DNA of 52,057 nt from Candidatus Eiseniibacteriota bacterium (GTDB taxonomy: Bacteria; Eisenbacteria; RBG-16-71-46), in assembly GCA_041492985.1 (NCBI GenBank), contig JBGPXY010000001.1:1-52057 (forward strand), written 5' to 3'. Position 1 is the first letter of the stretch. Each line of letters starts with the position of its first letter. Both the position numbers and the translations under genes were made by a program. The notes under the pieces were generated by a model. That model worked only from the letters and a program-made list of their open reading frames with translations, ran no database searches and was not told the origin of the DNA. This document shows positions 2,873-40,450 of the stretch, in pieces.

Positions 2873-2899
2873 TGGAGGCGGCACCCGGATTCGAACCGG
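2873..2899 (-). repeat. 27-nt direct repeat of the 3' end of tRNA-Cys (T-arm 3' part, acceptor and CCA); att-like scar
   Basis: TGGAGGCGGCACCCGGATTCGAACCGG is identical to 4547-4573 inside the intact tRNA-Cys. No matching 5' acceptor strand lies nearby, so this is not a gene. Confidence 0.75.
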
Positions 2900-3122
2900 C
2901 GTGCAGGGGGCAATTGGAGAATCTCGAGGTCCTACCGGCGGGTCCGATGCCACGGCTGGGTAGCCCTTGATTCGCCGGGCGTGTGAGGGGCAATTGCGGG
3001 ATCGTGCCACCGCCCCACGGAGCTGTTTCCGTCGCCTCCCTAGCGCGCAACTAGTCGCCGCCACGAACTCGCGAAGCTCTAGCAGCTTCAAGGCCGTGTC
3101 GCCGGCACCGGAGCCGGATCGT

Positions 3123-3476
3123 TCATGGGTACTGAGAATGTCCGCACCGAAAACAGATCTTCGCCTGGGGCGTGCGGAGGATTCGAGCGCATTCTGGGCA
3201 ACGATTGATGAATACCTCGACCTTGTGATCCGCCAGGATGCGCCGAACCACGCCATCTAGGAATGCGATTCTCTCCTCGGACGTGGGCGGCTTGTACGAG
3301 AGCGGTACGTTCTGGAAGGCAGGAACCTTTCGGCGGCGCTCTTCTGCGAGAACTAGGCTCCTTCTCTCCCACCGAGCTCTTTCTTCAGCCGTCCCCGTGC
3401 GCTCAGCATCGGTCATCAAATGGCTGAAGTAACACAGCACATACCCTCTGAGTTCGTCGGTCTCGTCGCGTTCCAT
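3123..3476 (-). CDS. Hypothetical protein with C-terminal zinc-ribbon (CPEC...CFRCGH)
   Basis: 117-aa ORF starting at MERDETDELRGYVL. GC content is visibly lower than the surrounding genes. No family was recognised. The start was chosen at an internal ATG of ORF 3123..3638. Confidence 0.45.
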   Translation of the reverse strand: MERDETDELRGYVLCYFSHLMTDAERTGTAEERARWERRSLVLAEERRRKVPAFQNVPLSYKPPTSEERIAFLDGVVRRILADHKVEVFINRCPECARILRTPQAKICFRCGHSQYP

Positions 3477-3765
3477 GTGCGTCACGCTAAGGGAATCGCC
3501 CTGTGCGCGCCATAGGAAGGTCGGCGGCCAGCTCGGCGCCCTGAGAGCTACCCCACGCGGCGCTTGTCGGCCACGACGGGAGACCTCCGTGCGCGTCCCA
3601 TGGCGAGGCGGCCTATGAGCGGGAAACCGCGCCGTCAAGGATTGGTGTCACACCGATCTTCACCGTCCACCAAACCGAAGCGACTCCGCACCGATCGCTC
3701 TCGGGGGACTTGGAACGGCGCTGTCCGCAGTAGCCGCGACATACAAGTTCTGATATCATGCGAGC

Positions 3766-4101
3766 ATGTCGGAACGGCCACTCGCCTGGCTCGGCTCCTC
3801 TCTCACGGACCTGCGGGCGTTCCCTGCCGACGCGCGCGGAGCCGCTGGCTATCAGCTGAGGCGAGTCCAATCCGGCTTGATGCCCAGCGACTGGAAGGCC
3901 GTGTCCTCCGTCGGGCCGGGGGGGTACGAGATCCGCGTGCACACGGGAGTCGAGCATCGGGTCTTCTACGTGGCCAAGTTCAGCGAGGCGATTTACGTGC
4001 TGCACGCCTTCGAGAAGAAGTCGCGGCAGACCCGTTCGGACGAGATCGAGGTTGGTCGACGCCGCTATGCAAGACTCGAGGCCCAGCGAAGAGGAGCCTG
4101 A
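3766..4101 (+). CDS. Type II toxin, RelE/HigB superfamily (phage Gp49-like)
   Basis: 111 aa with LTDLRAFPADARGAAGYQL..VQSG..P.DWK....GPGGYEIRV....EHRVFYVAKFSEAIYVLHAFEKKSRQT, the typical Gp49/HigB-like pattern. An HTH antitoxin follows 10 nt downstream. Confidence 0.8.
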   Translation: MSERPLAWLGSSLTDLRAFPADARGAAGYQLRRVQSGLMPSDWKAVSSVGPGGYEIRVHTGVEHRVFYVAKFSEAIYVLHAFEKKSRQTRSDEIEVGRRRYARLEAQRRGA

Positions 4102-4111
4102 GGAGGAAGCG

Positions 4112-4411
4112 ATGGCCACCCGAATTCGACAGTCATCCGGAAACGTTTTCCGAGACCTGGGATTTCCCCGCGAGGAGGCGGAGCACCTGAGAATCCGCTC
4201 CGAACTCATGATCCGGCTCACCAAGCTCATCGAGGGAAGGCGTCTTACCCAGGCTCAGGCCGCGCGGCTGCTCGGCGTCACTCAACCGAGGATAAGCGAT
4301 CTTGTACGCGGCAAGATCGATCGCTTCAGCGTGGATAGCCTGATCGAGATGCTGGGCCGGACGGGCGCCCGGATCGCGGTCGTGGTGAAGCCGCGGAGGC
4401 GAGTGGCCTGA
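4112..4411 (+). CDS. XRE-family HTH antitoxin (HigA-like)
   Basis: 99 aa with RBS GAGGAGGAAG. The sequence GNVFRDLGF...LTQAQAARLLGVTQPRISDLVRGKIDRFSVDSLIEML is typical of HTH_37/HigA antitoxins. Confidence 0.8.
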   Translation: MATRIRQSSGNVFRDLGFPREEAEHLRIRSELMIRLTKLIEGRRLTQAQAARLLGVTQPRISDLVRGKIDRFSVDSLIEMLGRTGARIAVVVKPRRRVA

Positions 4412-4435
4412 TCGTCGGCGCTGCCGGACGAACTC

Positions 4436-4462
4436 GTGAACGTTGAGGGGGCTCAACTTCAC
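4436..4462. terminator. Stem-loop between the TA operon end and the tRNA-Cys 3' end (possible bidirectional terminator)
   Basis: GTGAA-C-GTTGAG GGGG CTCAAC TTCAC forms an 11-bp stem with one bulge. It is followed by GCTCGCTTTGG on the plus strand. Confidence 0.35.
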
Positions 4463-4546
4463 GCTCGCTTTGGCGACGGTCGTATTCAACGCTCCCCCGG
4501 TTCAATCAAGGGTTTTGCCAATGAAGGCTTGGGCCCTGCAGGGAGT

Positions 4547-4621
4547 TGGAGGCGGCACCCGGATTCGAACCGGGGAATAAGGGTTTTGCAGACCCTCGCC
4601 TTACCACTTGGCTATGCCGCC
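4547..4621 (-). tRNA. tRNA-Cys (anticodon GCA), CCA encoded
   Basis: The minus strand reads GGCGGCA TA GCC AAGTGGTAA GGC G AGGGT CTGCAAA ACCCT TATTC CCCGG TTCGAAT CCGGG TGCCGCC T CCA. This folds as a cloverleaf with a GCA anticodon and the U73 discriminator characteristic of tRNA-Cys. Confidence 0.95.
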
Positions 4622-4685
4622 CCAACGGGCCGAGCACTCTAGCATCGTAGCGGCAGCTCTTGCCAGCGGTGGACATCACTCAACG

Positions 4686-4925
4686 AATCCCCCCGCCCCC
4701 CGCGCCCTTCTCTCCTCGGTGCACCTCGGTGATTCGGCTCGGCTCGAACTCTCTGACGTGATGGGACGCAGGGTGGCGATGAGAGATTGGGCTTCGCTCG
4801 AGGGCGGCGCACACACGGTTCCGTTGGCCGACGAGACCAGGTTCAGCCCTGGCGTGTGCGGCGTTCGGCTCACGCTCGCGATCCGGCACCGTCGCGACGA
4901 GCGGCGTAATTCTCTCGCCCTGATC
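4686..4925 (+). pseudogene. Relic of a FlgD-Ig/T9SS-type C-terminal sorting domain with no N-terminal body
   Basis: NPPAPRALLSSVHLGDSARLELSDVMGRRVAMRDWASLEGGAHTVPLADETRFSPGVCGVRLTLA...RRNSLALI aligns block-for-block with the C-terminal domains at 25480-25717 and 33770-34002 (NP...L.L.VYDV.GRRV......G.H.V.W......GVYF.R......R.L...). Upstream, the frame runs straight into the tRNA-Cys gene. Confidence 0.45.
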
Positions 4926-4948
4926 TCGAATCTATCTCGACCCGTCGG

Positions 4949-6388
4949 TCAGAGCTTTCGGAACTCCGCGGTTTCGCCCTGCGCGCCAGGATTGCCGCGG
5001 GAGAATCCACCTGGCCCGGCCGATCCCACCACGGTCTGATTCCCAGTTCGCGTGAAAGAACTGGCCGCGTCCTCGAGAATCGCGATGCTCGGGCCGCCGC
5101 CGCCGCCGCCGCCGGCACCGCCACGGCCGCCGGTACCGCCACGGCCGCCGTTTCCGCTTAGGCCCGTACGGCCTCCCAGGAAGTCGGACGCCTGGGCTCC
5201 GGGCTCGCCGCCGACGCCGAAGGTGCCGCCGGCGCCGCCGTCTCCGCCTGGGCCACCGCTGCCGCCATTGGCCGCAACGATGACGTTGTTCAAGAGCGAG
5301 CCGGCTGAGCCCTGCGCGAGCAAGACGCCGAAAGATCCGCCGCCGCCGGCGCCGCCGGCACCACCCTTTCCTCCTCCGCCCCCCGCTCCGCCGCCGCCGC
5401 CGCCCGGGCCGCAAATCAAAAGCGTTCCGACGCCGGCGCCTCCGCCCCCCCCTCCTCCTCCGTTCTGACCGTCGATAGCCTTGTTGCCACCTGCGGGCAC
5501 GTAGCCGCCGCCGACGAAGTTGCCGAAGGACCCGCCCGACGCTCCGTGCGCTCCGTCGCTAACCGGCTGGCCGAAGCCGCCCACGTCGCCGAAATGGGGT
5601 GAGACGAGGACCTGGCCGCCCCTGCCGCCCAAGCCGTAGCCGGGGCCAGAGCCCGGTCGGCCACTAGCACCATCGCCCAGGGTTCCATAGCCGCCGTCTC
5701 CACCACTGCTACCGATCGTGGAACTCTGGCCCGCCCCTCCATCGTTGGGGCATTCGCCGCCGTCGGCGCCCCTCGCCCCGGCGCCCGTCGCGTCGAGTCC
5801 AGCCGCGCCGGGGGGACCCGTCGTCCCCGCCTTGCCCCGGCCCGCGTAGATCCGGTTGTCCGCGATCACGACGCCCTGACTCCCGTTCAGGAGATGGACG
5901 CCGATCGAACTGCCGCCCGAGGCCGTGGCGTCGGCGCTGCGAATGGAGAAGCCGTCGATCAGGAGCGAATCGGCGTTGCTCCCTGACATCGCCGTCGGCC
6001 CGCCCGAGATGACGGTGGAGTCGGTCGCGAGATCGCGGACCCAGGTCGCGCCGCTGTAGCCGCCGTGGAGGCTCATTCTCGAGCGGAGCGTGATGCTGCC
6101 GGCATACGTTCCATAGGCGACGTAGATGTCGGCGCGCGTGTTCCCGGTGGCCGCGACGTCGATCGCCTTCTGAATGGTCTTGAATGGCGCCGGTTGGGTC
6201 CCAACATTCGCATCGTCGCCCGTCGCGGCGCTGACGAAGTAGTTTCCTGGCACGTTCGGGACCCCCGGCGGGCCCGGGTTATTCGGCGCGGTAGGAGATT
6301 GCTTGCTGCAGCCAGTCGCAACCCCCAGAGCGAGCAACGTCACGAACGCCAGGGCCAGCCTGGTGGCCTGATGGATTCTATGATTCAT
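4949..6388 (-). CDS. Lipoprotein with DUF1565/right-handed beta-helix-like N-domain and a long Gly-rich low-complexity C-terminal half
   Basis: RBS GAGGAGG. Signal plus lipobox MNHRIHQATRLALAFVTLLALGVATGC. NYFVSAATGDDANVGTQPAPFKTIQKAIDVA..ADIYVAYGTYAG is DUF1565-like. The C-terminal roughly 200 aa are dominated by GGxGG runs. Confidence 0.7.
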   Translation of the reverse strand: MNHRIHQATRLALAFVTLLALGVATGCSKQSPTAPNNPGPPGVPNVPGNYFVSAATGDDANVGTQPAPFKTIQKAIDVAATGNTRADIYVAYGTYAGSITLRSRMSLHGGYSGATWVRDLATDSTVISGGPTAMSGSNADSLLIDGFSIRSADATASGGSSIGVHLLNGSQGVVIADNRIYAGRGKAGTTGPPGAAGLDATGAGARGADGGECPNDGGAGQSSTIGSSGGDGGYGTLGDGASGRPGSGPGYGLGGRGGQVLVSPHFGDVGGFGQPVSDGAHGASGGSFGNFVGGGYVPAGGNKAIDGQNGGGGGGGGAGVGTLLICGPGGGGGGAGGGGGKGGAGGAGGGGSFGVLLAQGSAGSLLNNVIVAANGGSGGPGGDGGAGGTFGVGGEPGAQASDFLGGRTGLSGNGGRGGTGGRGGAGGGGGGGPSIAILEDAASSFTRTGNQTVVGSAGPGGFSRGNPGAQGETAEFRKL

Positions 6389-6489: not shown

Positions 6490-6590
6490 GCTTCGTTCCC
6501 CCTCCAGTCCTCTCAAACGACATCACCCCAGCGAGAACAGGTCGCTGGGGCGATTGGCTATCGGTCTGAGGCGATGTCGGTTGCGTGACT
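6490..6590 (+). repeat. Intergenic module, short variant (copy A')
   Basis: Hairpin CCCCAGCGA-GAACAGG-TCGCTGGGG (6526-6550), followed by CGATTGGCTATCGGTCTGAGGCGAT and GTGACTTTGGC. Shares the hairpin-proximal blocks with 16583-16636 and 40402-40450. Confidence 0.55.
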
Positions 6591-6740
6591 TTGGCACGGG
6601 TCCGGTGTAGAGCGAATTCAAAGCCGCAGCAACCTCTGGCGCCATGTGCGGCTCGAGGTCTCGAGCCGCGCGAAGAAGAGATCGCCGCCGCCGGTTCTCC
6701 CAACCCCGTCGCGTCCTCGCCACGGATCTCGTCTCCGACC

Positions 6741-6941
6741 CTGCTACCGTTTGCTACCGTCTCAGAGTCCCAACGAGTCCTCTCGTGTCCCCTCCTGTCC
6801 CCGCAAATGATATCGCCCCAGCGAGGCAACTCGTTGGGGCGATGGGGGGAATCACTTGGGGCGATGCGGCTTGCGCGCTCTCGTTGAAAAACAAGCCTCC
6901 AGGTTTTGCAGACCCTCGCCTTACCACTTGGCTATGCCGCC
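6741..6941 (+). repeat. Intergenic module, full-length copy B, ending in a 40-nt tRNA-Cys 5'-half copy
   Basis: Collinear with 16508-16694. Contains decamers CTGCTACCGT/TTGCTACCGT, GAGTCCTCTCGTGTCCC, decamers CGTGTCCCCT/CCTGTCCCCG, hairpin 1 at 6816-6839, two GGGGCGAT boxes, hairpin 2 at 6868-6897 and TTTGCAGACCCTCGCCTTACC... Confidence 0.7.
6902..6941 (-). pseudogene. tRNA-Cys 5'-half fragment (positions 1-41: acceptor 5' strand, D-arm, anticodon stem-loop); not a functional tRNA
   Basis: 40/40 identity to 4582-4621. Identity breaks inside the 3' strand of the anticodon stem. No T-arm or 3' acceptor strand follows. Confidence 0.8.
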
Positions 6942-7224
6942 TCGGAAGTGTCGCGGGGCGCGGAAGGTAGCACGCCGAAAGAGGGAGCAACAACCTGAGT
7001 GGCCCGGAGGAGTGTGGGTTCAACAAGCGTCCAAGAGCAAGGTTCTCTACGACAGCGGGTCAACCCCACTTCCAGGTAGGCATGGGCGCCGTGAGGGCAT
7101 CATGCGCCGCGTTCGATTCCCCTGGGCCGAGCACGAGAGTTTCCGGGTGCCGGGCGCGCATCGTCCGGAATCGGCTGGCGTCGATCTCTCGCGAGATACG
7201 GGCCAACCGCGTTGCCGATGGGCA

Positions 7225-7707
7225 TCAGGGCTGACGAGGCTCCGCCACGAAGAGCGTCCGCAGGTAGTCCACCACATTCTGGATCTGCCGTTCATTGAGC
7301 GTGCGCCCCCACGGCGGCATCCCCGTCGAGAGCCCGACCGCGCCGCCACCCGAGCGGATCGCGGTCACAAGATCGACATCGGAGTGCCGTGCCTGGAAGC
7401 TAGAATCGGCCAGTGAGCGCGGCCGTGGATCGAGGTTGTAGGCGTTGAACCCGTCGCCCTTCCCTGTTTCTCCGTGGCAGTTCAGGCAATAGTGGCGATA
7501 GAGCGCCCGGCCTTCGCGCGCGTTGTATCCGAGTTCTGGGATCGGCAACGTCGAGGCGGAGTAGATCGCGCTGACCCTGTCGACCGCCGTCGATTCGGCG
7601 GCTCCCGGGATCCGCGACGCGCGCTGGGCGGCCGTGCCCCGGCAGCCACCGGCCCAGGCCAGCACGGCAGCCATCACCACACTCGATGCGCGGAGGCCGC
7701 GCCTCAT
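7225..7707 (-). CDS. Monoheme class-I c-type cytochrome, probable lipoprotein
   Basis: 160 aa with lipobox-like LAWAGGC, the single heme motif CLNCHG and a distal MPPWG Met ligand motif. The ATGA overlap with the upstream gene indicates coupling. Confidence 0.8.
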   Translation of the reverse strand: MRRGLRASSVVMAAVLAWAGGCRGTAAQRASRIPGAAESTAVDRVSAIYSASTLPIPELGYNAREGRALYRHYCLNCHGETGKGDGFNAYNLDPRPRSLADSSFQARHSDVDLVTAIRSGGGAVGLSTGMPPWGRTLNERQIQNVVDYLRTLFVAEPRQP

Positions 7708-9782
7708 GGCCGCTTCCCTCCCGGATTCCCGGCCGACTTCGCGGACGAGGCCGCACCGTGCGCCGCAGTGAGTGACGGGAGCGACGCCACGTACGCGGTC
7801 AGTGCACGGGCATCGACGTCATCGAGACCATAGTCGGGCTCGCGTGCGTCCGGCCTCCAGCGCTGCGGGCCTTTCAGCCAAGAATAGATCCAACCCGTCT
7901 TCAACCGCTGGCCGGCACCGTCGAGCAGCGGACCGTAGAAGCCCCCCTTCCCACCGATCATGTGGCAGGCCTGGCAGCCGTAGCGTTCGTGGAAGAGCTT
8001 CCGTCCCCGCTCGACCTCCTCGGCCGCCGGCGCGGTCGCAAAGATCTCGCCGGGAATGCGATCGTCGCGCAAGACGTTCTCGGCAATGCTGGCGATGAAG
8101 GCCCGTTCCTCATCGGGCATCTGGAGCTGGATCATCCGTTCTTCGAGGATCGGTCTCACCGTGGTCGGCAGCTTGAGATAGCCGGCCAGCCAGCTCTCGC
8201 GTACCTTGCTCCCCTCGGCCGTGAGCGGCGCGGTGGAGATGTCGCCACCGGCTCCGCCGATCTGGTGACAGGACATGCAGCGATACTTGCGCACCAGCTC
8301 CCCGAACCGACCCGGAGGCGTGTAGGCCGTCTCGCGAGCCGGCACCTGATACGCCACCGGCACCGGCGCGCGCCCCATCGAGAGGAGCGCCGTCGTCAGC
8401 GCTTCCGTCTCGTGCTGGGTGAAGCCGAAGCGGGGCATCTTGAGCCCGTCGCGGAACGATCGCGGGTTCGTGACTTTGGCCGCGAGCCAGTCGGGCAGCG
8501 CGCGGGGCAGATCGTTCCGCCGCCCGAAATCGAGCCGGCCGACCGGCTTGTCCCCGATCCCGGTCAGCTCCGGGCCGATCGCCGCACCTTGGGCTTGGCC
8601 GCCGATCTGATGGCAGCCGTTGCAGCCCGAGCGGCGGAAGATGGTTTCCCCCGCCTGCACCACGCGATCGGCGGAGTGGAGGCCGGGCGCCGGGGCCGGC
8701 GCTGACGCATCCGTGAACTCGTCCATCATGTAGTCGGCGAGGTCGGCCACGTCCCGCGCACTGAAGTGATAGCGCGGCATCCGGGTGTCGGGATAGAACC
8801 GCTGGGGATCGGCGAGGAAGGCGAGGAGCCAGCGACGCGTCACTTTGGATCCCATCCCCGAGAGCTCCGGCGCGCTTCCATTCCCCCGCCCTTCGATGCT
8901 GTGGCACGAGATGCAGCGCGAGGTCGAAAACAGAAGCTTGCCATGCTCGGGATCACCCGGCGCGACCACGGCGGGCAAGTCAGCGTCCAGATCGACGCGC
9001 GGCGGGCGGCTCCACAGGAACGCAACCACCGAATCGATCTCCCCCGCCGAGAGCTTGAACTCCGGCATCCAGGTCGCCGGCCGCAGGGACCTGGGCGACT
9101 GGATCCACGCCGCGAGCCACGCCGGATTGGTCTTCTGCGACAGGCCGGCCAGATCGGGGGCTTCGCTCTTCCAGCCCTCGTGACCCGCGACCTTGTGGCA
9201 TCCGAAGCAGCCGACCCGCGTCATCAAGGCCCGTCCCTCCGAGAGCAGCGATGCTTCGGGCACGGCGTCGGCGAGATGGCAGCGGCCGCACGCCGCCTCG
9301 GTGTAGCGCACCGGCAGGATCGGGGAACTCCAGTCGCGCACCTGGCCGTGCGCCTCGGCCATGGTGGTCGCGCGCCCCTGCCCCAGGTGACAGGCGACGC
9401 ATCCGAACCGACCGATATCTCCCGGCGTGTGCGGCGTGCGTGGGTGCTGGCGGAACGGTTCGGGGGCCCCGGCCATGCGGGGCTCCTCGACGCCCAGGTG
9501 GCAGCTGACGCAGCGATCGACGTGGTCGTCGAGCGCCGGTAGCCAGATCTGCTGAACCCCCACCACGCGCGCGCGGGCCTGCTTCAACTCCTTGAGGGAG
9601 GCTGCGGAGCGAAGCAGCCGCTGGCGGTACTCGTTCTGGTAGCGACGGTACTCGCGGAAGTAGTCCTTGATCGGCGACACCGCCAGCACGACGAGAAAGG
9701 CCACGCTGGAGACGCCGAACCAGAACCAGAGCCGGTCGGACGACGGCCCGGGCGGGGTCACAGGTGCACGCCTCCCTGCCAT
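7704..9782 (-). CDS. Membrane-anchored octaheme c-type cytochrome
   Basis: 692 aa from [11 protein letters not shown], with an N-terminal TM helix LWFWFGVSSVAFLVVLAV. Eight CxxCH motifs: CVSCH, CVACH, CGRCH, CFGCH, CISCH, CNGCH, CMSCH, CQACH. The longer ORF-track start (10625) overlaps the cytochrome b genes in another frame, so I rejected it. Confidence 0.8.
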   Translation of the reverse strand: MAGRRAPVTPPGPSSDRLWFWFGVSSVAFLVVLAVSPIKDYFREYRRYQNEYRQRLLRSAASLKELKQARARVVGVQQIWLPALDDHVDRCVSCHLGVEEPRMAGAPEPFRQHPRTPHTPGDIGRFGCVACHLGQGRATTMAEAHGQVRDWSSPILPVRYTEAACGRCHLADAVPEASLLSEGRALMTRVGCFGCHKVAGHEGWKSEAPDLAGLSQKTNPAWLAAWIQSPRSLRPATWMPEFKLSAGEIDSVVAFLWSRPPRVDLDADLPAVVAPGDPEHGKLLFSTSRCISCHSIEGRGNGSAPELSGMGSKVTRRWLLAFLADPQRFYPDTRMPRYHFSARDVADLADYMMDEFTDASAPAPAPGLHSADRVVQAGETIFRRSGCNGCHQIGGQAQGAAIGPELTGIGDKPVGRLDFGRRNDLPRALPDWLAAKVTNPRSFRDGLKMPRFGFTQHETEALTTALLSMGRAPVPVAYQVPARETAYTPPGRFGELVRKYRCMSCHQIGGAGGDISTAPLTAEGSKVRESWLAGYLKLPTTVRPILEERMIQLQMPDEERAFIASIAENVLRDDRIPGEIFATAPAAEEVERGRKLFHERYGCQACHMIGGKGGFYGPLLDGAGQRLKTGWIYSWLKGPQRWRPDAREPDYGLDDVDARALTAYVASLPSLTAAHGAASSAKSAGNPGGKRP

Positions 9783-10459
9783 GGCCAGATCCACTTCCAC
9801 CCGGGACCGCGGAAGAAGGTGCCGATCACCGTAAGGATGACCGCCACGACGACGAACCAGGTCATGATCCAGTCGCTGAGCGTCACGCGGACGAGCCACC
9901 GCCGCCACGAAGCCGGACAGAGCGGCAGCGAGGGCATCACCATCGCCGCATAGAGCAGGACCGTCGGGACGAGCACCGGCCACACGCGCCAGGCCGCGAG
10001 GAAGGCCACGAGCGCCGCCACCACGGTGGTCAGCCACGACAGCCGGCGCCGCGCGGAGGCCTCGAGGAAGCCCCGGTCCTCCAGGTTCGTTCGGAAGTAC
10101 GGGATCACGACCATCGCGACCACAACCAGCCCGGGGATCAGCACGCCGGCGACGACCGGCGGGAAGTAGTGGAGCAACTCTTGAAGTCCGAGGAAGTACC
10201 AGGGCGCCTTTGCCGGGTTGGGCGTGTTGGTCGGATCGGCGATGCCTTCCAGCGGGGAGTCGAAGAACAGCGAGAGCAGCGCCATGGCGATCACGCACAC
10301 CTGCACCAGGATGATTTCGCGCAGGATCAGGTGTGGCGCGGTCATCACCGTCTCCTCGCGATCGACGAGGACGCGGGCCGCGGTGTCCGGGCGCAGGATC
10401 GCGAGCCGCTTGGGCGTCGCCGTCGCGTCGCTGCTCGGCTCGATTCGGTACTCGGTCAT
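9758..10459 (-). CDS. Cytochrome b C-terminal part / subunit IV-like (PetD-like), extended
   Basis: 233 aa from MTEYRIEPS. The PEWY-equivalent motif is [12 protein letters not shown]. It has several TM helices. The ATGA overlap joins it to the upstream cytochrome b gene. Confidence 0.8.
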
Positions 10460-11202
10460 GCGTCCTCCCCGCTTGGGCGAGCCGTGCGGCGCGAGCCAGC
10501 CAGGCCGCCATCCTTGCGGACCCGCCAGAGATGGAGCCCGACCAGGAGCACCAGGGCCAGCGGCAGGATGACGCAGTGGAGGACGTAGAAGCGCAGGAGG
10601 GCGTTCTCGCCGACGATGTTCCCACCCAGCAGCAGATAGCGGAACGGCGGCCCGAGGACCGGCATCGCCTTCACCATGTTCGTGCCGACCGAGACCGCCC
10701 AGATGGCGAGCTGATCCCACGGTAGCAGGTAGCCGGTGTAGCTCAGCAGCAGCGTGAGGAGCAGCAGAACCACGCCGATCACCCAGTTGAACTCGCGCGG
10801 CGGACGGTAGGCCTTGTGATAGAAGACGCGCAGCATGTGCAGGAAGACAATGAACACCATCGCGTGCGCGGGCCAGCGGTGCAGATTGCGAAGGAACATC
10901 CCGTTGCTCACGGTGAACTGCAGCTCCTTCATGTCGTGGTAAGCCTGCGGCACCGAGGGATGGTAGTAGAGCATCAGCAGCAGCCCTGTGGCGGTCAGGA
11001 TGGCGAACAGGATGAGGCCGATGGCGCCCAGGTAGTACGTGCTCGAGCTTTCGAGGCTGCGCCGCCGCACCTTCGCAGGGTGCAGATGCAGGAGGAGACT
11101 CTCCATCACCACCATGACCCGGTTGCGATTCGTAGCCCGGATCCCGTGGCGGACGATGGAGTGCCACACGCGGCTCTCGGTGATCGACGTCGGCAGCCTC
11201 AT
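10456..11202 (-). CDS. Cytochrome b6-like (N-terminal four-helix, heme-binding part of cytochrome b)
   Basis: 248 aa with [25 protein letters not shown] and [26 protein letters not shown], the paired His ligands on helices B and D. The [15 protein letters not shown] motif is present. Confidence 0.9.
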
Positions 11203-11212
11203 CTGGTCCTCA

Positions 11213-11692
11213 TCAGAATCGGTACGTGGTGCCGGCCGGAACCTCCACCGCCGTGTCCACGATCAGCTCTCCCTTTTCGGAGAGGCTCATCTGCAGCCAG
11301 CGGAGAGGGCGTGGCGCGGGACCGGCCACGACGTCGCCGGCGAGCGTGAACTGGCTGCCATGGCAGGGGCAGGCGATGATGTTCCGGTCTGGCTGGAAGC
11401 GCGTGATGCATCCGAGATGTGTGCACACGGCCGACAGCGCGCGAAATCCTTCCGTAAGCCGGATGACGTAGACGCGCTGTTCGACGTTGGTCACCACCGA
11501 CCCGACCTCGATCGCGTCGGGTGGCCCGGCGGAGAACGCCGTCGGCGGCTCGAACAGCACGCGCGGCCGCAGGAAATCGACCAGCACCACGCCGGCGCCT
11601 GCGGCCGCCGCTGCGCACGCCGCCAGCCCGGCGGCGACGCAGAAATCGCGGCGCGTGATCCCCGGTGCCTTGGCGGCGTCGGCATCAGACAT
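11213..11692 (-). CDS. Rieske [2Fe-2S] protein with Tat signal
   Basis: Twin-arginine [11 protein letters not shown]. Cluster boxes CTHLGC and CPCHGS. The start at MSDADAAK overlaps the stop of the upstream flavoprotein gene by 8 nt. Confidence 0.9.
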
Positions 11693-13559
11693 GTGCCGGC
11701 TCGAGCAGCTGGAACTGCTCCATGGTGATGGTCCCCGCCGGGCAGCGCTCGGCACACAGCCCACAGCGGATGCAGATCGTCTCGTCTTTGATCAGCGCCG
11801 TGCCCGCGCCGCCTCCCTGCGCGAGCAGCGCCGCCGCGGCCTCCCCGTGTTCGGCGCGCACGGCGTCCCCCATCGCCGGATCGGCGACGATCTCGGACAG
11901 GGGCACGAAGGTGATGCAGTTCTCCGGGCACACGTCGGCGCAGCCGCCGCACAGGATGCACTCCGTGCCCTGTTCCGGGTCTTCGTGGAACACGGTGTTG
12001 ACCCAGCAGTGGAGGCAGCGCGATGCCTCGAGCCGGGCCGACACCTCGGTGAAGCAGTGCTCGATCTCGGCGATGCCGACACGCCGCTCGATCGGCAGGA
12101 CGGGCGGTCGCTGGCGCGGCACGCCCTCGAAATCCAGCGCCCGCCGGTAACCCGGCAGCGGTTCGATGAACACCTCTACCGGCGGACCCGGGGTCGCGAC
12201 GCCACGCAGAAAGCCGTCAATCGATGCCGCGGCCCTCTTCCCGTCCGCAACGGCCTCGATCGCAATGCGTGGTCCGAACGCGGCGTCACCCCCGGCGTAG
12301 ATGCCGGGGGCCGTGGTGGCGAGGGTCGTCGGATCCACCTGGAGCGTGCCGCGCGGTGTGACCGCAACTCCGTCCTTCGGTCGCAGGAATGACAGATCAC
12401 AGGCCTGACCGATCGCAAGCACGATGGTGTCGGCTGCGATCGCCAGCTCGGTGCCTGGGACAAAGGTCGGGTTGAAGCGCCGCTGGCCATCGAAGACTGC
12501 GGAGCACTCGATGGTTTCGAGGCCTGTCACGCGACCCGCCTCGCCGAGGATGCGCTGCGGCCCGCGCCCGGCATGGATGACGATGCCCTCCCGCTGCGCC
12601 TCATGGATCTCGTCGCGGTCGGCCGGCATGGCCTCGAGAGATTCGAGACACACGATGTGGACCTCCTTGGCACCGAAGCGGATGGCCGAGCGTGCGACGT
12701 CGAACGCCGTGACGATGTTGAGGCCCGGATGGATGACCTCGTCCCGAAGGGGTGTCCGCAGGGCGGAGCGCGCCACGTCTACGGCCACGTTTCCACCGCC
12801 CACGACGAGCACGCGCCGGCCGAGCTCGACGCGGTAGCCCATGTTGACGTTGAGCAGGAAGTCGACGCCCTTGAGCACCCCGTCCAGGTCGGCGCCGGCG
12901 ATCTCGAGGTCGCGGCTGCGCTGCGCGCCCGGGGCGAGGAACACCGACCGAAAACCCTGCTCGCGCAGATCCGACAGGAGGAAATCGCGGCCCAGGCGCA
13001 TCCCCACCTTGAGCTCGACGCCGAGGTTCAGGATCGCGTTGATCTCGAGCTTGATCAGCTCGCGCGGCAGTCGATACTCTGGGATGCCGAGACGCAGCAT
13101 CCCCCCCGGCACCGCCTGGGCCTCGAAGATGGTCACCGGATATCCGAACAGCGCCAGGTCGTGGGCGGCCGCGAGCCCTGCCGGGCCCGCGCCGATGATC
13201 GCCACGCGGTCCTGCGGGTGGCGCAGCAGGCGCTCGCCGTAGATCTCCCGGAGCAGATCCACGTCCATCATGCTCTCGACGCCGAAACGCTCGGTGACGA
13301 AGCGTTTCAGCGCCCGGATGGCAATCGGCTCGTCGAGCGCCCCACGGCGGCATGCCGCCTCGCAGGGCGCGGCGCAGATCCGGCCGCAGATGGATGCGAG
13401 CGGATTCGGTCGTCGCGCCACGGCGTAGGCCTCGCGGTACTTCCCCTCCGCGATCAGCGCCACGTAGCGCCCGGCCTCGGTGCCGACTGGGCAAGCCTTG
13501 CAGCAGGGGAAGTTGCTCTCCAGCCAGGCCCGGTCGACCCGGCGATCAGACGTTGACAC
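11685..13559 (-). CDS. GltD-like (glutamate synthase small-subunit family) NAD(P)-dependent FAD/Fe-S oxidoreductase with C-terminal 2x[4Fe-4S] ferredoxin domain
   Basis: 624 aa. N-terminal Cys cluster CCKACP...CGRICAAPCEAAC. Dinucleotide folds IIGAGPAGLAAA and VVGGGNVAVDVA. C-terminal CILCGGCADVCP and CIRCGLCAERCP. GTG start. Confidence 0.85.
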   Translation of the reverse strand: MSTSDRRVDRAWLESNFPCCKACPVGTEAGRYVALIAEGKYREAYAVARRPNPLASICGRICAAPCEAACRRGALDEPIAIRALKRFVTERFGVESMMDVDLLREIYGERLLRHPQDRVAIIGAGPAGLAAAHDLALFGYPVTIFEAQAVPGGMLRLGIPEYRLPRELIKLEINAILNLGVELKVGMRLGRDFLLSDLREQGFRSVFLAPGAQRSRDLEIAGADLDGVLKGVDFLLNVNMGYRVELGRRVLVVGGGNVAVDVARSALRTPLRDEVIHPGLNIVTAFDVARSAIRFGAKEVHIVCLESLEAMPADRDEIHEAQREGIVIHAGRGPQRILGEAGRVTGLETIECSAVFDGQRRFNPTFVPGTELAIAADTIVLAIGQACDLSFLRPKDGVAVTPRGTLQVDPTTLATTAPGIYAGGDAAFGPRIAIEAVADGKRAAASIDGFLRGVATPGPPVEVFIEPLPGYRRALDFEGVPRQRPPVLPIERRVGIAEIEHCFTEVSARLEASRCLHCWVNTVFHEDPEQGTECILCGGCADVCPENCITFVPLSEIVADPAMGDAVRAEHGEAAAALLAQGGGAGTALIKDETICIRCGLCAERCPAGTITMEQFQLLEPAHV

Positions 13560-13566
13560 CGGGCGC

Positions 13567-14157
13567 CTACTTCTTCATCGCGAAGTCGGCCGTCGTGATC
13601 CCGGCGACCGTCACCGGTCTGGCAGCCTCCGCCTTGAACTTCGGGTGCCACACCTTCACTGTGTAGGCACCGTCCGGCAGATTCTTGATGGAGTAGGCGC
13701 CGGTCTTCTCGGTGACTGCGAACCAAGGGGTCGGCAGCGCGATGATGAAGCCCTCCATCTCGGCGTGCACCTTGCACAGGAGCGTGGCGTTGCACCGCGT
13801 CTTGAAGGTGTAGCTGCGAGTCTGACCTTGCGGCCAGCTTCCCAGATTGAACTGCTCGCAGCACTTGTCCGGCGAAAAGACGTTGTGGAGAACCTGGTCG
13901 CCATTGAGGAAGTCGACCGTGGTTCCCTGCTGGACCGGCAGGACGTGCGGCGTGAACACCAGGTTCTGCTGGTTCATCCTCGCGTGGGCCGTCGGGGCCG
14001 GGAACGTCCTCCCGGGAATCGCGTCGATGTAGACCACCGCGTCCCCATTGGTCTTCGCGCCCATGACCGTGACGACGCCCTTCAACTCGCCCGCCGGGGC
14101 GGCCGAAGCCGCCGCCAGCAGGATCACGGCGCATCCCACGCCAGATAGAACTCGCAT
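13567..14157 (-). CDS. Secreted cupredoxin (type-1 blue copper) fused to a CarboxypepD_reg-like beta-sandwich
   Basis: Carries a signal peptide. Putative copper ligands are H in VLHNVF and CKVHAEM (C-x2-H-x2-M). The C-terminus has TGAYSIKNLPDGAYTVKVWHPKF. Confidence 0.8.
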   Translation of the reverse strand: MRVLSGVGCAVILLAAASAAPAGELKGVVTVMGAKTNGDAVVYIDAIPGRTFPAPTAHARMNQQNLVFTPHVLPVQQGTTVDFLNGDQVLHNVFSPDKCCEQFNLGSWPQGQTRSYTFKTRCNATLLCKVHAEMEGFIIALPTPWFAVTEKTGAYSIKNLPDGAYTVKVWHPKFKAEAARPVTVAGITTADFAMKK

Positions 14158-14191
14158 ACCGTTTCCTTTCGTGAGTCGGCCGGTGACGAAA

Positions 14192-15514: not shown

Positions 15515-15553
15515 AGCCCCTCCTCGTTTCAGTGGGACAATCGAACGAGGACG

Positions 15554-15582
15554 AGCCTAGAAGGACGCCGCGGGCGTCACAA
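15554..15582 (-). promoter_or_regulatory. Candidate sigma70-type promoter of the respiratory operon
   Basis: The minus strand reads TTGTGA-N17-TAGGCT, about 40 nt upstream of the ATG at 15514, in a locally AT-richer stretch. Confidence 0.3.
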
Positions 15583-15604
15583 TCAGCGGAATGAATCATT
15601 TCTT

Positions 15605-15622
15605 CTGATGCAGATGCATCAG
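15605..15622. promoter_or_regulatory. 18-bp palindrome CTGATGCA-GA-TGCATCAG, a candidate HTH-dimer (LuxR-type) operator or the terminator of the regulator gene
   Basis: The half-sites are perfect 8-bp inverted repeats, flanked by ATCAT/ATGAT. This is the most AT-rich patch of the region. It is centred about 35 nt upstream of the putative -35 and lies 30 nt downstream of the PAS-LuxR stop. Confidence 0.35.
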
Positions 15623-15651
15623 ATGATCGCCCAGTCGGGGAAGGGGGCAGG

Positions 15652-16302: not shown

Positions 16303-16507
16303 GGTCAGCTCGCCCTCTCACCTCTGCGTTCGAATGAGTCTCCCGCTGCGGTTCGCCCAGCGGTAGCGCGCACCAGAGCCGATCGTCCCACATCGTCCCG
16401 CGAGACGACAGCGGGATCGTTGGGCCCGGGCCCGTCGGGGAGCGCATGCGCTCGTCCTCTGAGCCAAGGCGCCGCAGACAGACTTGACTCCATCCTAGTC
16501 CCCCCAC

Positions 16508-16694
16508 TTGCTACAATTTGCTACCGTCTCAACTTCCTCATGAGTCCTCTCGTGTCCCTTCGTGTCCCCTCGAAGGATATCTCCCCAGCGAAGGCAACTC
16601 GCTGGGGCGATTGGGCTATCGGTCTGGGGCGATATCGCTCGCGGGCTCGGCGTTGAAGAAAATCGCGCCGAAATTTGCAGACCCTCGCCTTACC
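16508..16694 (+). repeat. Intergenic module, full-length copy C, ending in a 21-nt tRNA-Cys fragment
   Basis: Collinear with 6741-6941. Decamers at 16508-16527 and 16551-16570. Hairpin 1 at 16583-16607, hairpin 2 at 16647-16671, and TTTGCAGACCCTCGCCTTACC at 16674-16694. Confidence 0.7.
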
Positions 16695-18018: not shown

Positions 18019-21662
<3,644 letters not shown>

Positions 21663-28982: not shown

Positions 28983-29065
28983 CGGTGGAATCTACAGCAT
29001 GACCGTCCTTTCCTCCGATGAAGCGCCGGCTGCGTTCTGGCCGAGGTTCAGCTGGCTAATGCCTC

Positions 29066-29217
29066 CCATCGGTGGCCACCGTTGGCCACCCTTGAGACGA
29101 CGCCCCAGAGGACTCAACCCTCTGGGGCGTCGCGCATTGTATTGCCGCGGACCTGCTTGCAGACTCGGTCTCGTAAGTGACGTGTTTTCGAGGTCCCGCG
29201 TTTGCAGACCCTCGCCT
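29066..29217 (+). repeat. Intergenic module, diverged copy D, ending in a 17-nt tRNA-Cys fragment
   Basis: Same geometry as copies B and C. Decamers CGGTGGCCAC/CGTTGGCCAC at 29070-29089. Hairpin 1 CCCCAGAGG-ACTCAAC-CCTCTGGGG at 29103-29127. Hairpin 2 at 29149-29196. TTTGCAGACCCTCGCCT at 29201-29217. Confidence 0.55.
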
Positions 29218-29265
29218 GACCACACGAGGGACGAGGCCGGCGCGCCTGGAGGCGAAGGGCCCGAG

Positions 29266-39554: not shown

Positions 39555-39564
39555 GGGTAACTCT

Positions 39565-39580
39565 CCTAACGGCGTTAAGG
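39565..39580. promoter_or_regulatory. Second copy of the TetR operator-like palindrome, overlapping the tolC-like RBS
   Basis: CCTAACGGCGTTAAGG has a perfect 11-nt core palindrome, TAACGGCGTTA. It is nearly identical to the site in the tetR promoter at 40280-40296. Confidence 0.5.
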
Positions 39581-39596
39581 GCCAGGTCAAAAAAAA

Positions 39597-40244
39597 TCAT
39601 GACGCCCTCCCCCGTGCCGCCGGCTCGCGAAGGAAGCCGTGCAGCAGGACCTGCATCGACGCCTCCACCGTGGCGCGCAAATCGCCCCACGGAAACCCGT
39701 CTCCTTCGTAGTACTTCACCATCCGCAGCGAGATGAGACCGTGCACGGCGCCCCAGAGGATCTGCGCCAGCTGGTCCGGGTCCTTCACCTCTGGGCGAAT
39801 CCGGCCCTGCTCGATCGCCTGCCGGCACGCCTCGCGCAGGAACATGTAGGCGTCCTTCTCGGGATCGCCGTGCACCCACTTGGAGTCGAAGATCCTCGGC
39901 AGGAAGGTCATGAACATGAAGCGGTACTGGCTCGGGTATTCCACGGCGAAGCGCAGGTAGGCGCGGCCCACGGCGAGGATGCGCTCCACGGGATCAGCCG
40001 CCGCAGCCTGGCCGCTGAAGTGACGCGCGAGCGATTCGAAGTCGCACTGGCAGAGCTCGGTGAGGAGCGACTGCTTGTTGCGGAAGTGGTGATAGAGCGC
40101 GGTCGGTGTGTACTCGACGCGCTCGGCGATGGCCCGCATCGTCACCGCGTCGTAGCCCTCGTCGGCGAACATCTCGCGAGCGGCCGCGAGGATCTTGTCA
40201 CGCGTCTCGAGCTTCTCCCGATCACGCCGTTCTTTCGTTCCCAC
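39597..40244 (-). CDS. TetR/AcrR-family transcriptional repressor
   Basis: 215 aa with a GTG start and RBS AAGGAGGAGG. N-terminal HTH: ILAAAREMFADEGYDAVTMRAIAERVEYTPTALYHHFRNKQSLL. Confidence 0.9.
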   Translation of the reverse strand: MGTKERRDREKLETRDKILAAAREMFADEGYDAVTMRAIAERVEYTPTALYHHFRNKQSLLTELCQCDFESLARHFSGQAAAADPVERILAVGRAYLRFAVEYPSQYRFMFMTFLPRIFDSKWVHGDPEKDAYMFLREACRQAIEQGRIRPEVKDPDQLAQILWGAVHGLISLRMVKYYEGDGFPWGDLRATVEASMQVLLHGFLREPAARGRAS

Positions 40245-40274
40245 CGCGGACCTCCTCCTTGCCTGACCGCCGTT

Positions 40275-40303
40275 ACGATACCTAACGGCGTTAGGTCAGT
40301 CAA
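40275..40303 (-). promoter_or_regulatory. tetR promoter (TTGACT-N17-TATCGT) with a 17-bp perfect palindromic operator filling the spacer
   Basis: The minus strand reads TTGACT GACCTAACGCCGTTAGG TATCGT. The palindrome ACCTAACGGCGTTAGGT lies at 40280-40296. An extra half-site, CGCCGTTAC, lies at 40267-40275. Confidence 0.55.
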
Positions 40304-40380
40304 GCGGTAAGATGCCGGACCCCTTCTGGCAGGTCCACGGAGAGTTCGAAGGTGGCCCCGGCGCACCCGGCGCGGGCCCC

Positions 40381-40450
40381 AGGTCCCTCCGATGGAATCA
40401 GCCCCGGCGAGAATAACTCGCTGGGGCGATTGGCTATTGGTCCGGAGCCT
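40381..40450 (+). repeat. Intergenic module, short variant (copy E)
   Basis: Hairpin CCCCGGCGAG-AATAA-CTCGCTGGGG (40402-40426, one G-U pair when read on the plus strand). It is followed by CGATTGGCTATTGGTCCGGAGC and GTGACTGTGGC, as in copy A'. Confidence 0.5.

What the first reader, a model, noticed from the sequence alone, without database searches (positions are those of the whole stretch)
2873..40450. tRNA-Cys-derived fragment attached to the module shortens with distance from the tRNA (40, 21, 17, 0 nt), suggesting serial accretion
Module copies run outward from the 5' end of tRNA-Cys at 4621:
- Copy B, 2.3 kb away, carries 40 nt of tRNA sequence.
- Copy C, 12 kb away, carries 21 nt (16674-16694).
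- Copy D, 24.6 kb away, carries 17 nt (29201-29217), plus a degenerate second TTGCAGACTCGGTC at 29157-29170. Its module is the most diverged.
- Copy E, 35.8 kb away, carries none.

All fragments have the same polarity as the tRNA. This is the pattern expected if successive segments were inserted at the tRNA, each pushing the older junction outward where it decays. On the other side of the tRNA there is a classical 27-nt 3'-end repeat at 2873-2899.

If this is right, the respiratory operon, the kinase/hydrolase block and the RND efflux operon would each be an old cargo segment.

Against this, no integrase, excisionase or mobility gene remains in any segment, and I see no obvious compositional break outside 2900-4546.
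Basis: inference. Interest (0 to 1): 0.6.

Follow-up and report, generated by a model that had tools for sequence, protein, structure and literature searches.

The report
Insertion scars stacked before tRNA-Cys
The repeated tRNA-Cys pieces are real scars left by mobile elements that inserted one after another into the front half of a cysteine tRNA gene in an uncultured Eisenbacteria bacterium; this mirror-image route to a gene island is rare but already documented.

Summary
Four same-strand copies of the tRNA-Cys anticodon-arm sequence occur in the window (0.01 expected by chance). Every fragment ends at tRNA position 37, the last base of the anticodon loop, and is fused there to the "module".

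Relatives explain the module. It is the far arm (P') of the attachment site of a tyrosine-integrase clade common in Candidatus Eisenbacteria. It has a hairpin about 65 nt in and tandem CGGTAGCA-type sites about 150 nt in. The integrase gene sits 50-120 nt upstream of the tRNA and reads the same way. The element therefore supplies the promoter and 5' half, and the old 5' half is displaced outward. Intact examples at tRNA-Cys exist in other genomes.

The window holds five junction remnants from three element lineages, and one integrase stub at 23110-23298. Serial accretion is supported.

The "shortening with distance" gradient is not:
- copy A, nearest the tRNA, has no fragment;
- D's fragment (23 nt) is longer than C's (21 nt);
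- the truncations are sharp breakpoints, not gradual decay;
- D is a different module type, not a diverged copy.

Cargo status is plausible for the respiratory operon and unproven for the other segments. The scan has met reversed tRNA arrays before in other genomes. This is a new member of a known kind.

The parts
2873..2899 (-). 27-nt copy of the tRNA-Cys 3' end (positions 49-75). It is the scar of a standard-orientation islet downstream of the tRNA.
   Evidence: 27/27 identity. The same junction sequence lies next to 3' fragments in G004:C276 and on G000:C78.
2900..4546 (.). Small downstream islet carrying a HigB-like (Gp49) toxin at 3766-4101 (+) and an HTH_37 antitoxin at 4113-4411 (+). 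It has no integrase.
   Evidence: Pfam hits. 83% nt identity to the islet next to tRNA-Cys in G004:C276.
4547..4621 (-). Intact tRNA-Cys(GCA). The anticodon loop CUGCAAA spans positions 31-37.
   Evidence: ARAGORN; Rfam tRNA at 69 bits.
4622..4700 (-). Promoter-like leader now serving the tRNA. It is unrelated to the leader upstream of fragment B. In G004:C276, homology with the window stops exactly at tRNA +1.
4949..6388 (-). Only gene of the innermost segment: a lipoprotein-type signal (LALGVATGC), a beta-helix-like N-terminal part and a Gly-rich tail.
   Evidence: Translation. No Pfam hit.
6490..6590 (-). Partial module A (subtype 1b): the hairpin plus about 60 nt. It has no tRNA piece and no decamers.
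6728..6901 (-). Module B (subtype 1a), a P' arm. Read in tRNA sense, it has a GC hairpin about 63 nt after the junction, GGGGACA repeats, and tandem ACGGTAGCAA / ACGGTAGCAG about 140 nt in.
   Evidence: Closest copy is G017:C68, at 78% over 175 nt.
6902..6941 (-). Fragment B: tRNA positions 1-40. A promoter-like leader follows at 6942-6985.
   Evidence: 40/40 identity. Leader comparison.
7222..16307 (-). PAS-LuxR regulator plus an 8-gene respiratory operon (heme-porin-like protein, cupredoxin, GltD-like flavoprotein, Rieske, cytochrome b, multihaem cytochrome c).
   Evidence: Pfam. 82.7% nt over 9.1 kb to G023:C31 and 83.8% over 8.5 kb to G010:C133. Not found in seven same-genus genomes.
16495..16673 (-). 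Module C (subtype 1b), a P' arm.
   Evidence: 84% identical to G017:C52, 82% to G005:C410, and only 73% to module B.
16674..16694 (-). Fragment C: tRNA positions 17-37, cut off sharply on its 5' side.
   Evidence: 21/21 identity. Flanks shown.
16831..23078 (.). Two beta-lactamase-fold genes flanking a kinase-AAA_16-TPR gene. The block lies between the integrase stub and fragment C. Its GC3 is 0.76-0.78, against 0.83-0.94 for most of the window's genes.
23110..23298 (-). Integrase stub covering clade-profile positions 208-282 and including the H-x-x-R-H box. It reads in the same sense as the tRNA. Its 3' end is cut by the hydrolase gene that ends at 23078.
   Evidence: hmmsearch E 6.5e-10 against the window and 2.9e-8 against the whole genome. 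BLASTP 16/25, E 9e-9.
23300..28982 (.). A secreted protein with an FlgD_ig C-terminal domain (+ strand, ends 25720) and a Ser/Thr kinase with PD40 repeats (26265-28982, minus). Both lie between module D and the integrase stub.
   Evidence: Pfam.
29025..29200 (-). Module D (type 2), a P' arm of a second element lineage. It has its own hairpin and tandem GGTGGCCA repeats. Its GTAGCCA-type sites are degenerate here.
29201..29223 (-). Fragment D: tRNA positions 15-37 with one mismatch, cut off on its 5' side.
   Evidence: 22/23 identity.
40381..40450 (-). Partial module E (subtype 1b-like): the hairpin plus about 25 nt. It has no tRNA piece.

Best explanation
The stretch upstream of tRNA-Cys is a tandem array of decayed integrative elements that entered by site-specific recombination in the anticodon loop, with the usual target orientation reversed.

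How it works:
- In this tyrosine-integrase clade the circular element carries, in order: int, a P arm with tandem GTAGC sites, a tRNA promoter, tRNA positions 1-37, and a P' arm (the "module").
- The P' arm has a GC hairpin about 65 nt in, GGACA repeats, and tandem CGGTAGCA-type arm sites about 150 nt in.
- Crossover in the loop joins the element's promoter and 5' half to the resident 3' half, so the tRNA stays intact.
- The resident promoter and 5' half are left fused at position 37 to the P' arm, at the far end of the element.
- Each new arrival repeats this, so older junctions move outward.

In the window, five junction remnants survive from three lineages. From outermost to innermost they are E(1b), D(2), C(1b), B(1a) and A(1b). 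Later deletions and insertions removed the integrases (one stub is left), cut fragments C and D on their outer side, and removed the fragments of A and E. A separate, standard-orientation islet sits on the 3' side of the tRNA.

What is shown and what is inferred:
- Shown: the junction anatomy; its recurrence in relatives; the integrase family and its position next to tRNAs.
- Inferred: the recombination chemistry; the order of arrival; the hairpin acting as a terminator for the displaced promoter; how much of each segment came in as cargo. My estimates for cargo status are: innermost lipoprotein segment likely, respiratory operon about 0.55, C-D segment in part, D-E segment unknown.
For: 1. 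Four same-strand copies of the anticodon-arm 17-mer occur, against 0.01 expected. Every fragment ends at position 37, the last base of the anticodon loop.
2. Fragment-plus-module junctions recur in G017, G005, G022, G004 and G007, usually with the full 37 nt and a conserved tRNA promoter upstream.
3. G042:C119 has a 5' fragment, a module, cargo, an integrase and then tRNA-Cys within 4.6 kb. G004:C276 (same genus) has the integrase 80 nt upstream of tRNA-Cys and the same downstream HigBA islet.
4. The integrase clade was found in 28 of 61 relatives. Among 78 public loci: 35 have int followed by a co-directional full tRNA (Ser-CGA, Ser-UGA, Arg-CCU, Cys, Lys); 13 have int followed by a 5' fragment ending near position 39-46; 4 are convergent; 7 have int followed by a 3' part.
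5. Junctions at tRNA-Ser and tRNA-Arg show the same module architecture: hairpin at +68/69 and tandem CGGTAGCA at +153. The P arms next to int carry matching tandem GTAGC sites.
6. Modules B and C are 73% identical to each other, but 78-84% identical to copies in other genomes.
7. An integrase stub lies at 23110-23298, in tRNA sense, inside the C-D segment.
8. The operon block between module C and fragment B is 83% identical over 9 kb to two other genera. Ordinary genes are 68-76% identical at that distance, and the block was not found in seven same-genus genomes.
Against: - There is no intact integrase in the window or in the 70%-complete assembly.
- None of the three fragments has an integrase gene directly upstream, as the model predicts for displaced elements.
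- The kinase at 26265-28982 lies on the element side of module D. Its 75% ortholog in G004:C221 lies on the chromosome side of the same type of junction.
- The respiratory operon occurs in G023 with no att scars.
- Gene order around tRNA-Cys is poorly conserved overall, and genes beyond module E are equally patchy. Presence or absence alone therefore cannot prove cargo status.
Confidence: 0.78

Rival explanations
1. The junctions are genuine att scars, but the large blocks between them (respiratory operon, kinase/hydrolase block, RND operon) were never element cargo. On this view they are ancestral chromosome or later independent insertions. Scars ended up among them through deletions, permutation of composite elements, or recombination with foreign DNA.
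For: - Kinase synteny conflict with G004:C221.
- The operon sits without scars in G023.
- The hydrolase-kinase block has a different GC3 and cuts both the integrase stub and fragment C, so it looks like a later insertion.
- Intact or small elements in relatives are only 3.8-4.5 kb.
- Genes outside the array are also patchy.
Against: - The operon block is bracketed exactly as predicted: a P' arm at the far end, and a promoter plus 5' half at the near end.
- It is more similar across genera than ordinary genes.
- Arrays in relatives also enclose ordinary-looking cargo, such as KaiBC plus a histidine kinase, or MatE.
Confidence: 0.3
2. The module is a dispersed, MITE-like repeat that merely contains a tRNA-derived piece.
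For: - Copies share one orientation.
- They lie between genes.
- They have hairpins.
- Most arrays have no integrase.
Against: - No copy lies anywhere else in the assembly.
- In relatives, every full copy follows a tRNA-Cys 5' half that ends at the anticodon loop.
- There are no terminal inverted repeats or target duplications.
- The same architecture follows Ser and Arg tRNA halves next to integrase genes.
Confidence: 0.03
3. Local segmental duplication of the tRNA leader region, kept as a regulatory unit (promoter, 5' half, terminator hairpin) in front of operons, with no integrase involved.
For: - Modules are better conserved than non-coding scars should be: 81-92% between genomes.
- The hairpin is followed by a U-rich tail in several copies.
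Against: - B and C are closer to copies in other genera than to each other.
- C and D lack the promoter and the first 14-16 nt of the tRNA.
- The tandem arm-type sites match those beside integrase genes.
Confidence: 0.05
4. Assembly artefact: the contig is a chimera joined at repeated tRNA or module sequence from several strains.
For: - The genome is a metagenome-assembled genome of 219 contigs.
- Relatives' contigs often break at these junctions (G017:C68, G010:C133).
Against: - The repeats are at most 40 nt identical, and modules are only 73% alike. That is too little to mis-join contigs.
- Comparable arrays occur in independent assemblies, and one is duplicated in a separate metagenome contig.
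Confidence: 0.03

Closest known systems
Integrative element with reversed target-gene orientation (Zhao & Williams 2002, J Bacteriol 184:859; cited in PMC6563490 and PMC1635311)
   Same: - The element recombines with the 5' part of a tRNA gene.
- It lies upstream of the gene and must supply the 5' portion and a promoter.
- The displaced fragment is a 5' fragment.
   Different: - Here it is a whole integrase clade in Candidatus Eisenbacteria, using Ser, Arg, Cys and Lys tRNAs, not a single element.
- The original paper was not held in the library and could not be read. Its details rest on how others cite it and on my memory.
Anticodon-loop sublocation of tRNA-targeting tyrosine integrases (Williams 2002, Nucleic Acids Res 30:866; cited in PMC1635311)
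   Same: The crossover is placed at the 7-nt anticodon loop, with the stem halves flanking it. All fragments end at position 37.
   Different: The homology retained in attP lies on the 5' side of the loop instead of the 3' side.
Tandem accretion of integrative elements and integrase-less derivatives (ICE/CIME accretion in Streptococcus thermophilus, Pavlovic et al. 2004, from my own knowledge; arrays formed by re-use of one att site, noted in PMC6563490)
   Same: - Several att-bounded segments are stacked at one site.
- Most lack a recombinase.
- They come from different element lineages.
   Different: - There is no conjugation module here.
- Mobilisation in trans is untested.
- Polarity is reversed.
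Additive flexible genomic islands at tRNA genes (Alteromonas, PMC4898812)
   Same: - The hotspot collects cassettes marked by partial tRNA repeats.
- Cassettes are shared between distant relatives at higher identity than the core genome.
   Different: In those islands the repeats are 3' pieces lying downstream of the tRNA.
Lambda-type attP organisation (core flanked by arms that carry arm-type integrase sites; textbook knowledge)
   Same: Tandem 8-10-nt direct repeats lie on both arms at fixed distances from the core, and they vary together with the integrase lineage.
   Different: Binding is not tested. The arm also holds a conserved GC hairpin at +63 to +69.

Membership tests
tRNA-targeting tyrosine-integrase integrative elements (genomic islands) | [quoted passage not shown] | tested here: met
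   Fragments B, C and D share the tRNA's polarity; 4 matches against 0.01 expected.
tRNA-targeting tyrosine-integrase integrative elements (genomic islands) | Crossover at a canonical sublocation (anticodon loop, T loop or 3' end) | tested here: met
   All 5' fragments, here and in relatives, end at position 37, the end of the anticodon loop. The 3' repeat starts at position 49, in the T arm.
tRNA-targeting tyrosine-integrase integrative elements (genomic islands) | Tyrosine integrase gene at one end of the element, next to att | tested here: inconclusive
   The window has only a stub of about 63 codons at 23110-23298. The feature is met in relatives G042:C119 and G004:C276.
tRNA-targeting tyrosine-integrase integrative elements (genomic islands) | Sporadic presence among related genomes, with an empty site in some | tested here: inconclusive
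   The operon block was found in 2 of 60 relatives. Several relatives have tRNA-Cys with a native-type promoter and no fragments. However, flanks are not syntenic enough to define an empty site.
Reversed-orientation tRNA elements (Zhao & Williams type) | The displaced fragment is the 5' part, and the inserted DNA lies upstream of the intact tRNA | tested here: met
Reversed-orientation tRNA elements (Zhao & Williams type) | The element supplies its own promoter and 5' half; int lies upstream of the tRNA and reads the same way | tested here: met
   This was seen in relatives: int lies 50-120 nt upstream of a full tRNA in 35 of 78 loci. Promoter-like leaders sit upstream of every full-length fragment. 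In the window, the leaders of the tRNA and of fragment B differ. Promoter activity was not tested.
Accretion arrays / integrase-less att-bounded elements (CIME-like, additive islands) | Two or more att-bounded segments in tandem at one site, from separate arrivals | tested here: met
   Five junction remnants of three module types. B and C are 73% identical to each other but 78-84% identical to copies in other genomes.
Accretion arrays / integrase-less att-bounded elements (CIME-like, additive islands) | Segments can be excised or moved by an integrase supplied in trans | not testable with these tools
   No clade integrase is present in the assembly.
MITE-like dispersed repeat | Many copies scattered over the genome, with terminal inverted repeats and target duplications | tested here: not met
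   No copy lies outside this contig. Copies in relatives are tied to tRNA-Cys halves.
Integron cassette array (attC sites) | An IntI integrase with attI, and short cassettes each ending in an attC hairpin | tested here: not met
   There is no IntI. Segments are 2-12 kb multi-gene blocks, and the repeats contain tRNA sequence.

The most novel reading that the evidence does not exclude
Candidatus Eisenbacteria harbour an integrase clade whose default mode is the reversed one (promoter plus tRNA 5' half carried in attP). Its att-bounded, integrase-less segments act as a cassette platform in front of Ser, Arg, Cys and Lys tRNA genes. These segments could be moved in trans, and could shuttle units as large as a 9-kb respiratory operon between genera. 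The conserved P' arm would double as a terminator that insulates cargo from the displaced tRNA promoter.
Probability: 0.3. Interest if true: 0.6.

Novelty: new member of a known kind. Interest (0 to 1): 0.36.

Why it matters
- It explains an apparently orphan "structured module" as an attachment-site arm.
- It shows that a respiratory operon in an uncultured phylum sits in an integration hotspot and may be horizontally mobile.
- It adds a well-populated integrase clade to the short list of elements that replace the front of a tRNA gene rather than the back. About 48 of 78 loci show the reversed arrangement.
- This matters for island-finding software that looks only for 3' tRNA fragments and requires a resident integrase. 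Such software would miss every array described here.

Tried and rejected
- Rfam scan of the window found only the tRNA, so the module is not a known RNA family.
- Pfam on about 40 window ORFs found no integrase, excisionase or transposase. Only a clade-specific profile found the stub.
- The Pfam PF00589 search across relatives was too crowded with XerC/D-type hits to be useful.
- Synteny tests were mostly uninformative. DNA and protein searches of the segments in same-genus genomes showed that gene order around tRNA-Cys and around the 912-aa gene is not conserved, so "independent presence or absence of segments" could be judged only for the operon block.
- The leader of fragment B is not homologous to the tRNA-Cys leader of G010 beyond motif level, so the operon did not arrive together with G010-like tRNA flanks.
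- A metagenome scan for the type-2 junction returned only a duplicate of G017:C68.
- The sigma-70 promoter and terminator consensus scan found nothing at the modules, whose U tails are weak in this window.
- Zhao & Williams 2002 is not held in the library.
- Integron and Tn7/CAST-like readings were considered and dropped: there are no such genes, and the repeats are tRNA halves ending at the anticodon loop.


Full report
**What is in the sequence.**
The window is a whole 52-kb contig of a 2.54-Mb, 70%-complete metagenome-assembled genome. Public records of its same-genus relatives are titled Candidatus Eisenbacteria.

tRNA-Cys(GCA) lies at 4547-4621 on the minus strand. Numbering the tRNA from its 5' end at 4621, the anticodon loop CUGCAAA spans positions 31-37.

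- 2873-2899 equals positions 49-75 (27/27).
- 6902-6941 equals positions 1-40 (40/40).
- 16674-16694 equals positions 17-37 (21/21).
- 29201-29223 equals positions 15-37 (22/23, of which 17 are consecutive exact matches).

A 17-mer common to all copies occurs four times, always on the + strand, against 0.01 expected. No module or 5' fragment occurs elsewhere in the assembly.

All three 5' fragments stop at position 37 on the side that touches the module. That is the last base of the anticodon loop, a classical crossover site for tRNA-targeting tyrosine integrases (Williams 2002, as cited in PMC1635311).

**What the module is.**
A search of 60 relatives found the same fragment-plus-module junction in four other genomes, and 37-nt 5' halves of tRNA-Cys in many more. 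Read in tRNA sense, every junction has the same layout:
- a conserved promoter-like leader (…TATAACTCTCTGCGCCGCAA…);
- tRNA positions 1-37;
- about 65 nt of spacer;
- a GC-rich hairpin (CGCCCCAG…CTGGGGCG);
- GGACA-type repeats;
- a tandem pair of about 10-nt repeats.

Two unrelated sequence types exist. Type 1 comprises window copies B and C, plus partial copies A and E. Type 2 is window copy D. Type 2 is 81% identical over 175 nt, and 87-92% over its core, to copies in G004, G007 and G017, each of which follows a full 37-nt fragment. Copy D is therefore a different arm, not a decayed copy of the same module.

Within type 1, B (subtype 1a) and C (subtype 1b) are 73% identical. B is 78% identical to a G017 copy, and C is 82-84% identical to G017 and G005 copies. 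B and C therefore arrived separately and did not arise by local duplication.

**The integrase.**
G042:C119 carries, within 4.6 kb, a 5' fragment, a module, two cargo genes, a Phage_integrase gene and then the intact tRNA-Cys 44 nt downstream.

A 52%-identical integrase sits 80 nt upstream of tRNA-Cys in the same-genus genome G004:C276. That genome also shares the downstream HigBA islet at 83% identity. Its homology with the window ends exactly at tRNA +1.

The family occurs in 28 of 61 relatives. A profile scan of one genome per species returned 78 loci, nearly all from Eisenbacteria. Their arrangement is as follows:

| Arrangement | Loci |
|---|---|
| int followed within 50-700 nt (mostly 50-120) by a co-directional full tRNA (Ser-CGA, Ser-UGA, Arg-CCU, Cys, Lys) | 35 |
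| int followed by a 5' fragment ending at position 31-46 | 13 |
| convergent int and tRNA | 4 |
| int followed by a 3' part, the standard arrangement | 7 |

An integrase followed by a 5' fragment is what the model predicts for an older element displaced by a newer one.

Junctions at tRNA-Ser and tRNA-Arg have the same arm architecture: hairpin at +68/69 and tandem TCGGTAGCA at +153, with a clear U-rich tail after the hairpin in several copies. The spacer between int and the tRNA carries matching tandem GTAGC sites.

The module is therefore the P' arm of attP, and the decamers are probable arm-type integrase sites. The hairpin may terminate transcripts from the displaced tRNA promoter. That last point is inference only.

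**History of the window.**
From the outside in, the order is E (1b, partial), D (type 2), C (1b), B (1a), A (1b, partial), then the tRNA.

A clade-specific profile finds an integrase stub at 23110-23298 on the tRNA strand, inside the C-D segment. It scores E 6.5e-10 against the window and 2.9e-8 against the whole genome, and BLASTP gives 16/25 identities across the H-x-x-R-H box. Its 3' end is cut by a block of two hydrolase genes and a kinase-AAA gene (16831-23078). That block has a lower GC3 (0.76-0.78, against 0.83-0.94 for most of the window's genes), and its other edge lies next to the sharp 5' truncation of fragment C. A single later insertion or deletion there would explain three things at once: the loss of the integrase 3' end, the loss of its promoter, and the loss of tRNA positions 1-16.

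Fragment B keeps a promoter-like leader that differs from the one now serving the tRNA.

The innermost segment holds one lipoprotein gene.

**Why the gradient fails.**
With copy A included, the fragment lengths by distance are 0, 40, 21, 23 and 0 nt. In relatives, fragments are 37 nt wherever they sit in an array. The short fragments have abrupt ends. Length therefore records individual deletions, not age.

**Are the segments cargo?**
The block 7222-16307 (LuxR plus the respiratory operon) aligns at 82.7% over 9.1 kb to G023 and at 83.8% over 8.5 kb to G010, both from other genera. Its first gene was not found in seven same-genus genomes or in 51 other relatives.

The baseline from the recA region is as follows:

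| Comparison | recA | Neighbouring genes |
|---|---|---|
| Same genus | 89% | 74-82% |
| G023, G010, G013 | 85-88% | 68-76% |

The block is thus about ten points more similar than ordinary genes at that distance. It also sits exactly between a P' arm and a promoter plus 5' half. This fits cargo, or at least horizontal arrival.

Four points argue against a general cargo claim:
- G023 carries the operon with no att scar.
- A P-type ATPase beyond module E is just as patchy.
- Gene order is poorly conserved everywhere tested.
- The kinase at 26265-28982, which lies on the element side of module D, has its 75% ortholog on the chromosome side of a type-2 junction in G004:C221, and a 71% relative 6 kb upstream of tRNA-Cys in the complete genome G020.

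The kinase conflict is unresolved. Permutation of a composite element, or recombination with foreign DNA, could produce it. RND and MFP are 85-87% identical in protein to G013, but nothing ties them to an element.

**Comparison with what is known.**
- Recombination with the 5' part of a tRNA gene is described as considerably less frequent than with the 3' part, but it is documented (PMC6563490, citing Zhao & Williams 2002 and archaeal cases).
- Arrays formed by re-use of one att site are known (same paper).
- tRNA-linked additive islands whose cassettes are shared across species at high identity are known (PMC4898812).
- Earlier notes of this scan report reversed arrays at tRNA-Trp, tRNA-Arg and tRNA-Lys in other phyla.

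The window is therefore a new member of a known kind. The clade-level bias toward the reversed mode (about 48 of 78 loci) and the shared arm architecture are the parts most worth following.

**Limits.**
- No recombination was observed.
- Promoter, terminator and arm-site functions are inferred.
- The assembly is incomplete.

Noticed in passing
L083-L160 (loci); for example L122:3186-3470 and L134:599-11063: One integrase clade uses both polarities with the same geometry, with int reading toward the core about 50-120 nt away. Reversed: Ser-CGA, Ser-UGA, Arg-CCU, Cys, Lys. Standard, with int next to the displaced 3' part: Glu-CUC, Lys, Ser. Convergent: Trp, Glu-UUC, Pro.
   Followed up: partly
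L026 (G036:C10) 6306-19755: A 13-kb prophage-like insert (large terminase, HNH endonuclease, DNA methylase) lies upstream of tRNA-Cys. It is bounded by a 53-nt 5' fragment (positions 1-53). This is a reversed-orientation insertion with a different crossover, in the T arm.
   Followed up: no
L025 (G004:C221) 1489-4528; L023 (G005:C410) 4167-10253: Segments in the tRNA-Cys arrays of relatives carry an AEP-TOTE primase fused to, or followed by, a helicase. They also carry NYN and PRiA4_ORF3 proteins. This looks like defence-type cargo.
   Followed up: no
L021 (G017:C52) 440-8366: Three 5' fragments occur within 8 kb. One att-bounded segment encodes KaiC, KaiB and a PAS histidine kinase/response regulator, so a clock-like module sits in an integration array. 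With contig C68, this genome holds at least five fragments and no assembled intact tRNA-Cys.
   Followed up: no
window 7222-16307: The respiratory operon plus its LuxR regulator is about 83% identical in DNA over 8.5-9.1 kb to two genomes of other genera. It was not found in seven same-genus genomes. This is likely inter-genus transfer.
   Followed up: partly
window 34085-38178: The RND pump and its membrane-fusion protein are 87% and 85% identical in protein (87% in DNA) to G013:C200, from another genus. That is above the usual inter-genus level.
   Followed up: no
G000:C78:2835-3139: A second copy of the 3'-type junction (TTGCCCCCTGCACG plus tRNA-Cys positions 49-75) lies on another contig of the same genome. 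It is preceded by a weak integrase C-terminal remnant (E 0.005).
   Followed up: partly
L056 (G004:C276) 3327-7100: The same-genus relative has two tandem 3'-side islets behind tRNA-Cys, with 3' repeats at 3327 and 5261, as well as the upstream integrase. The tRNA is thus a hotspot on both sides.
   Followed up: partly
window 31267-34005 (+): The real gene here is a 912-aa secreted protein on the + strand (Por_Secre_tail, weak sortilin repeats), 70-82% identical in same-genus genomes. The minus-strand ORFs are not genes. 30282-31007 (+) encodes a dihaem cytochrome c.
   Followed up: partly
window 28773-28982 and 47889-48098: The 210-nt inverted repeat at 74% is simply the N-terminal kinase-domain coding sequence of two paralogous Ser/Thr kinases on opposite strands. 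This kinase family has many copies in every genome of the family.
   Followed up: partly
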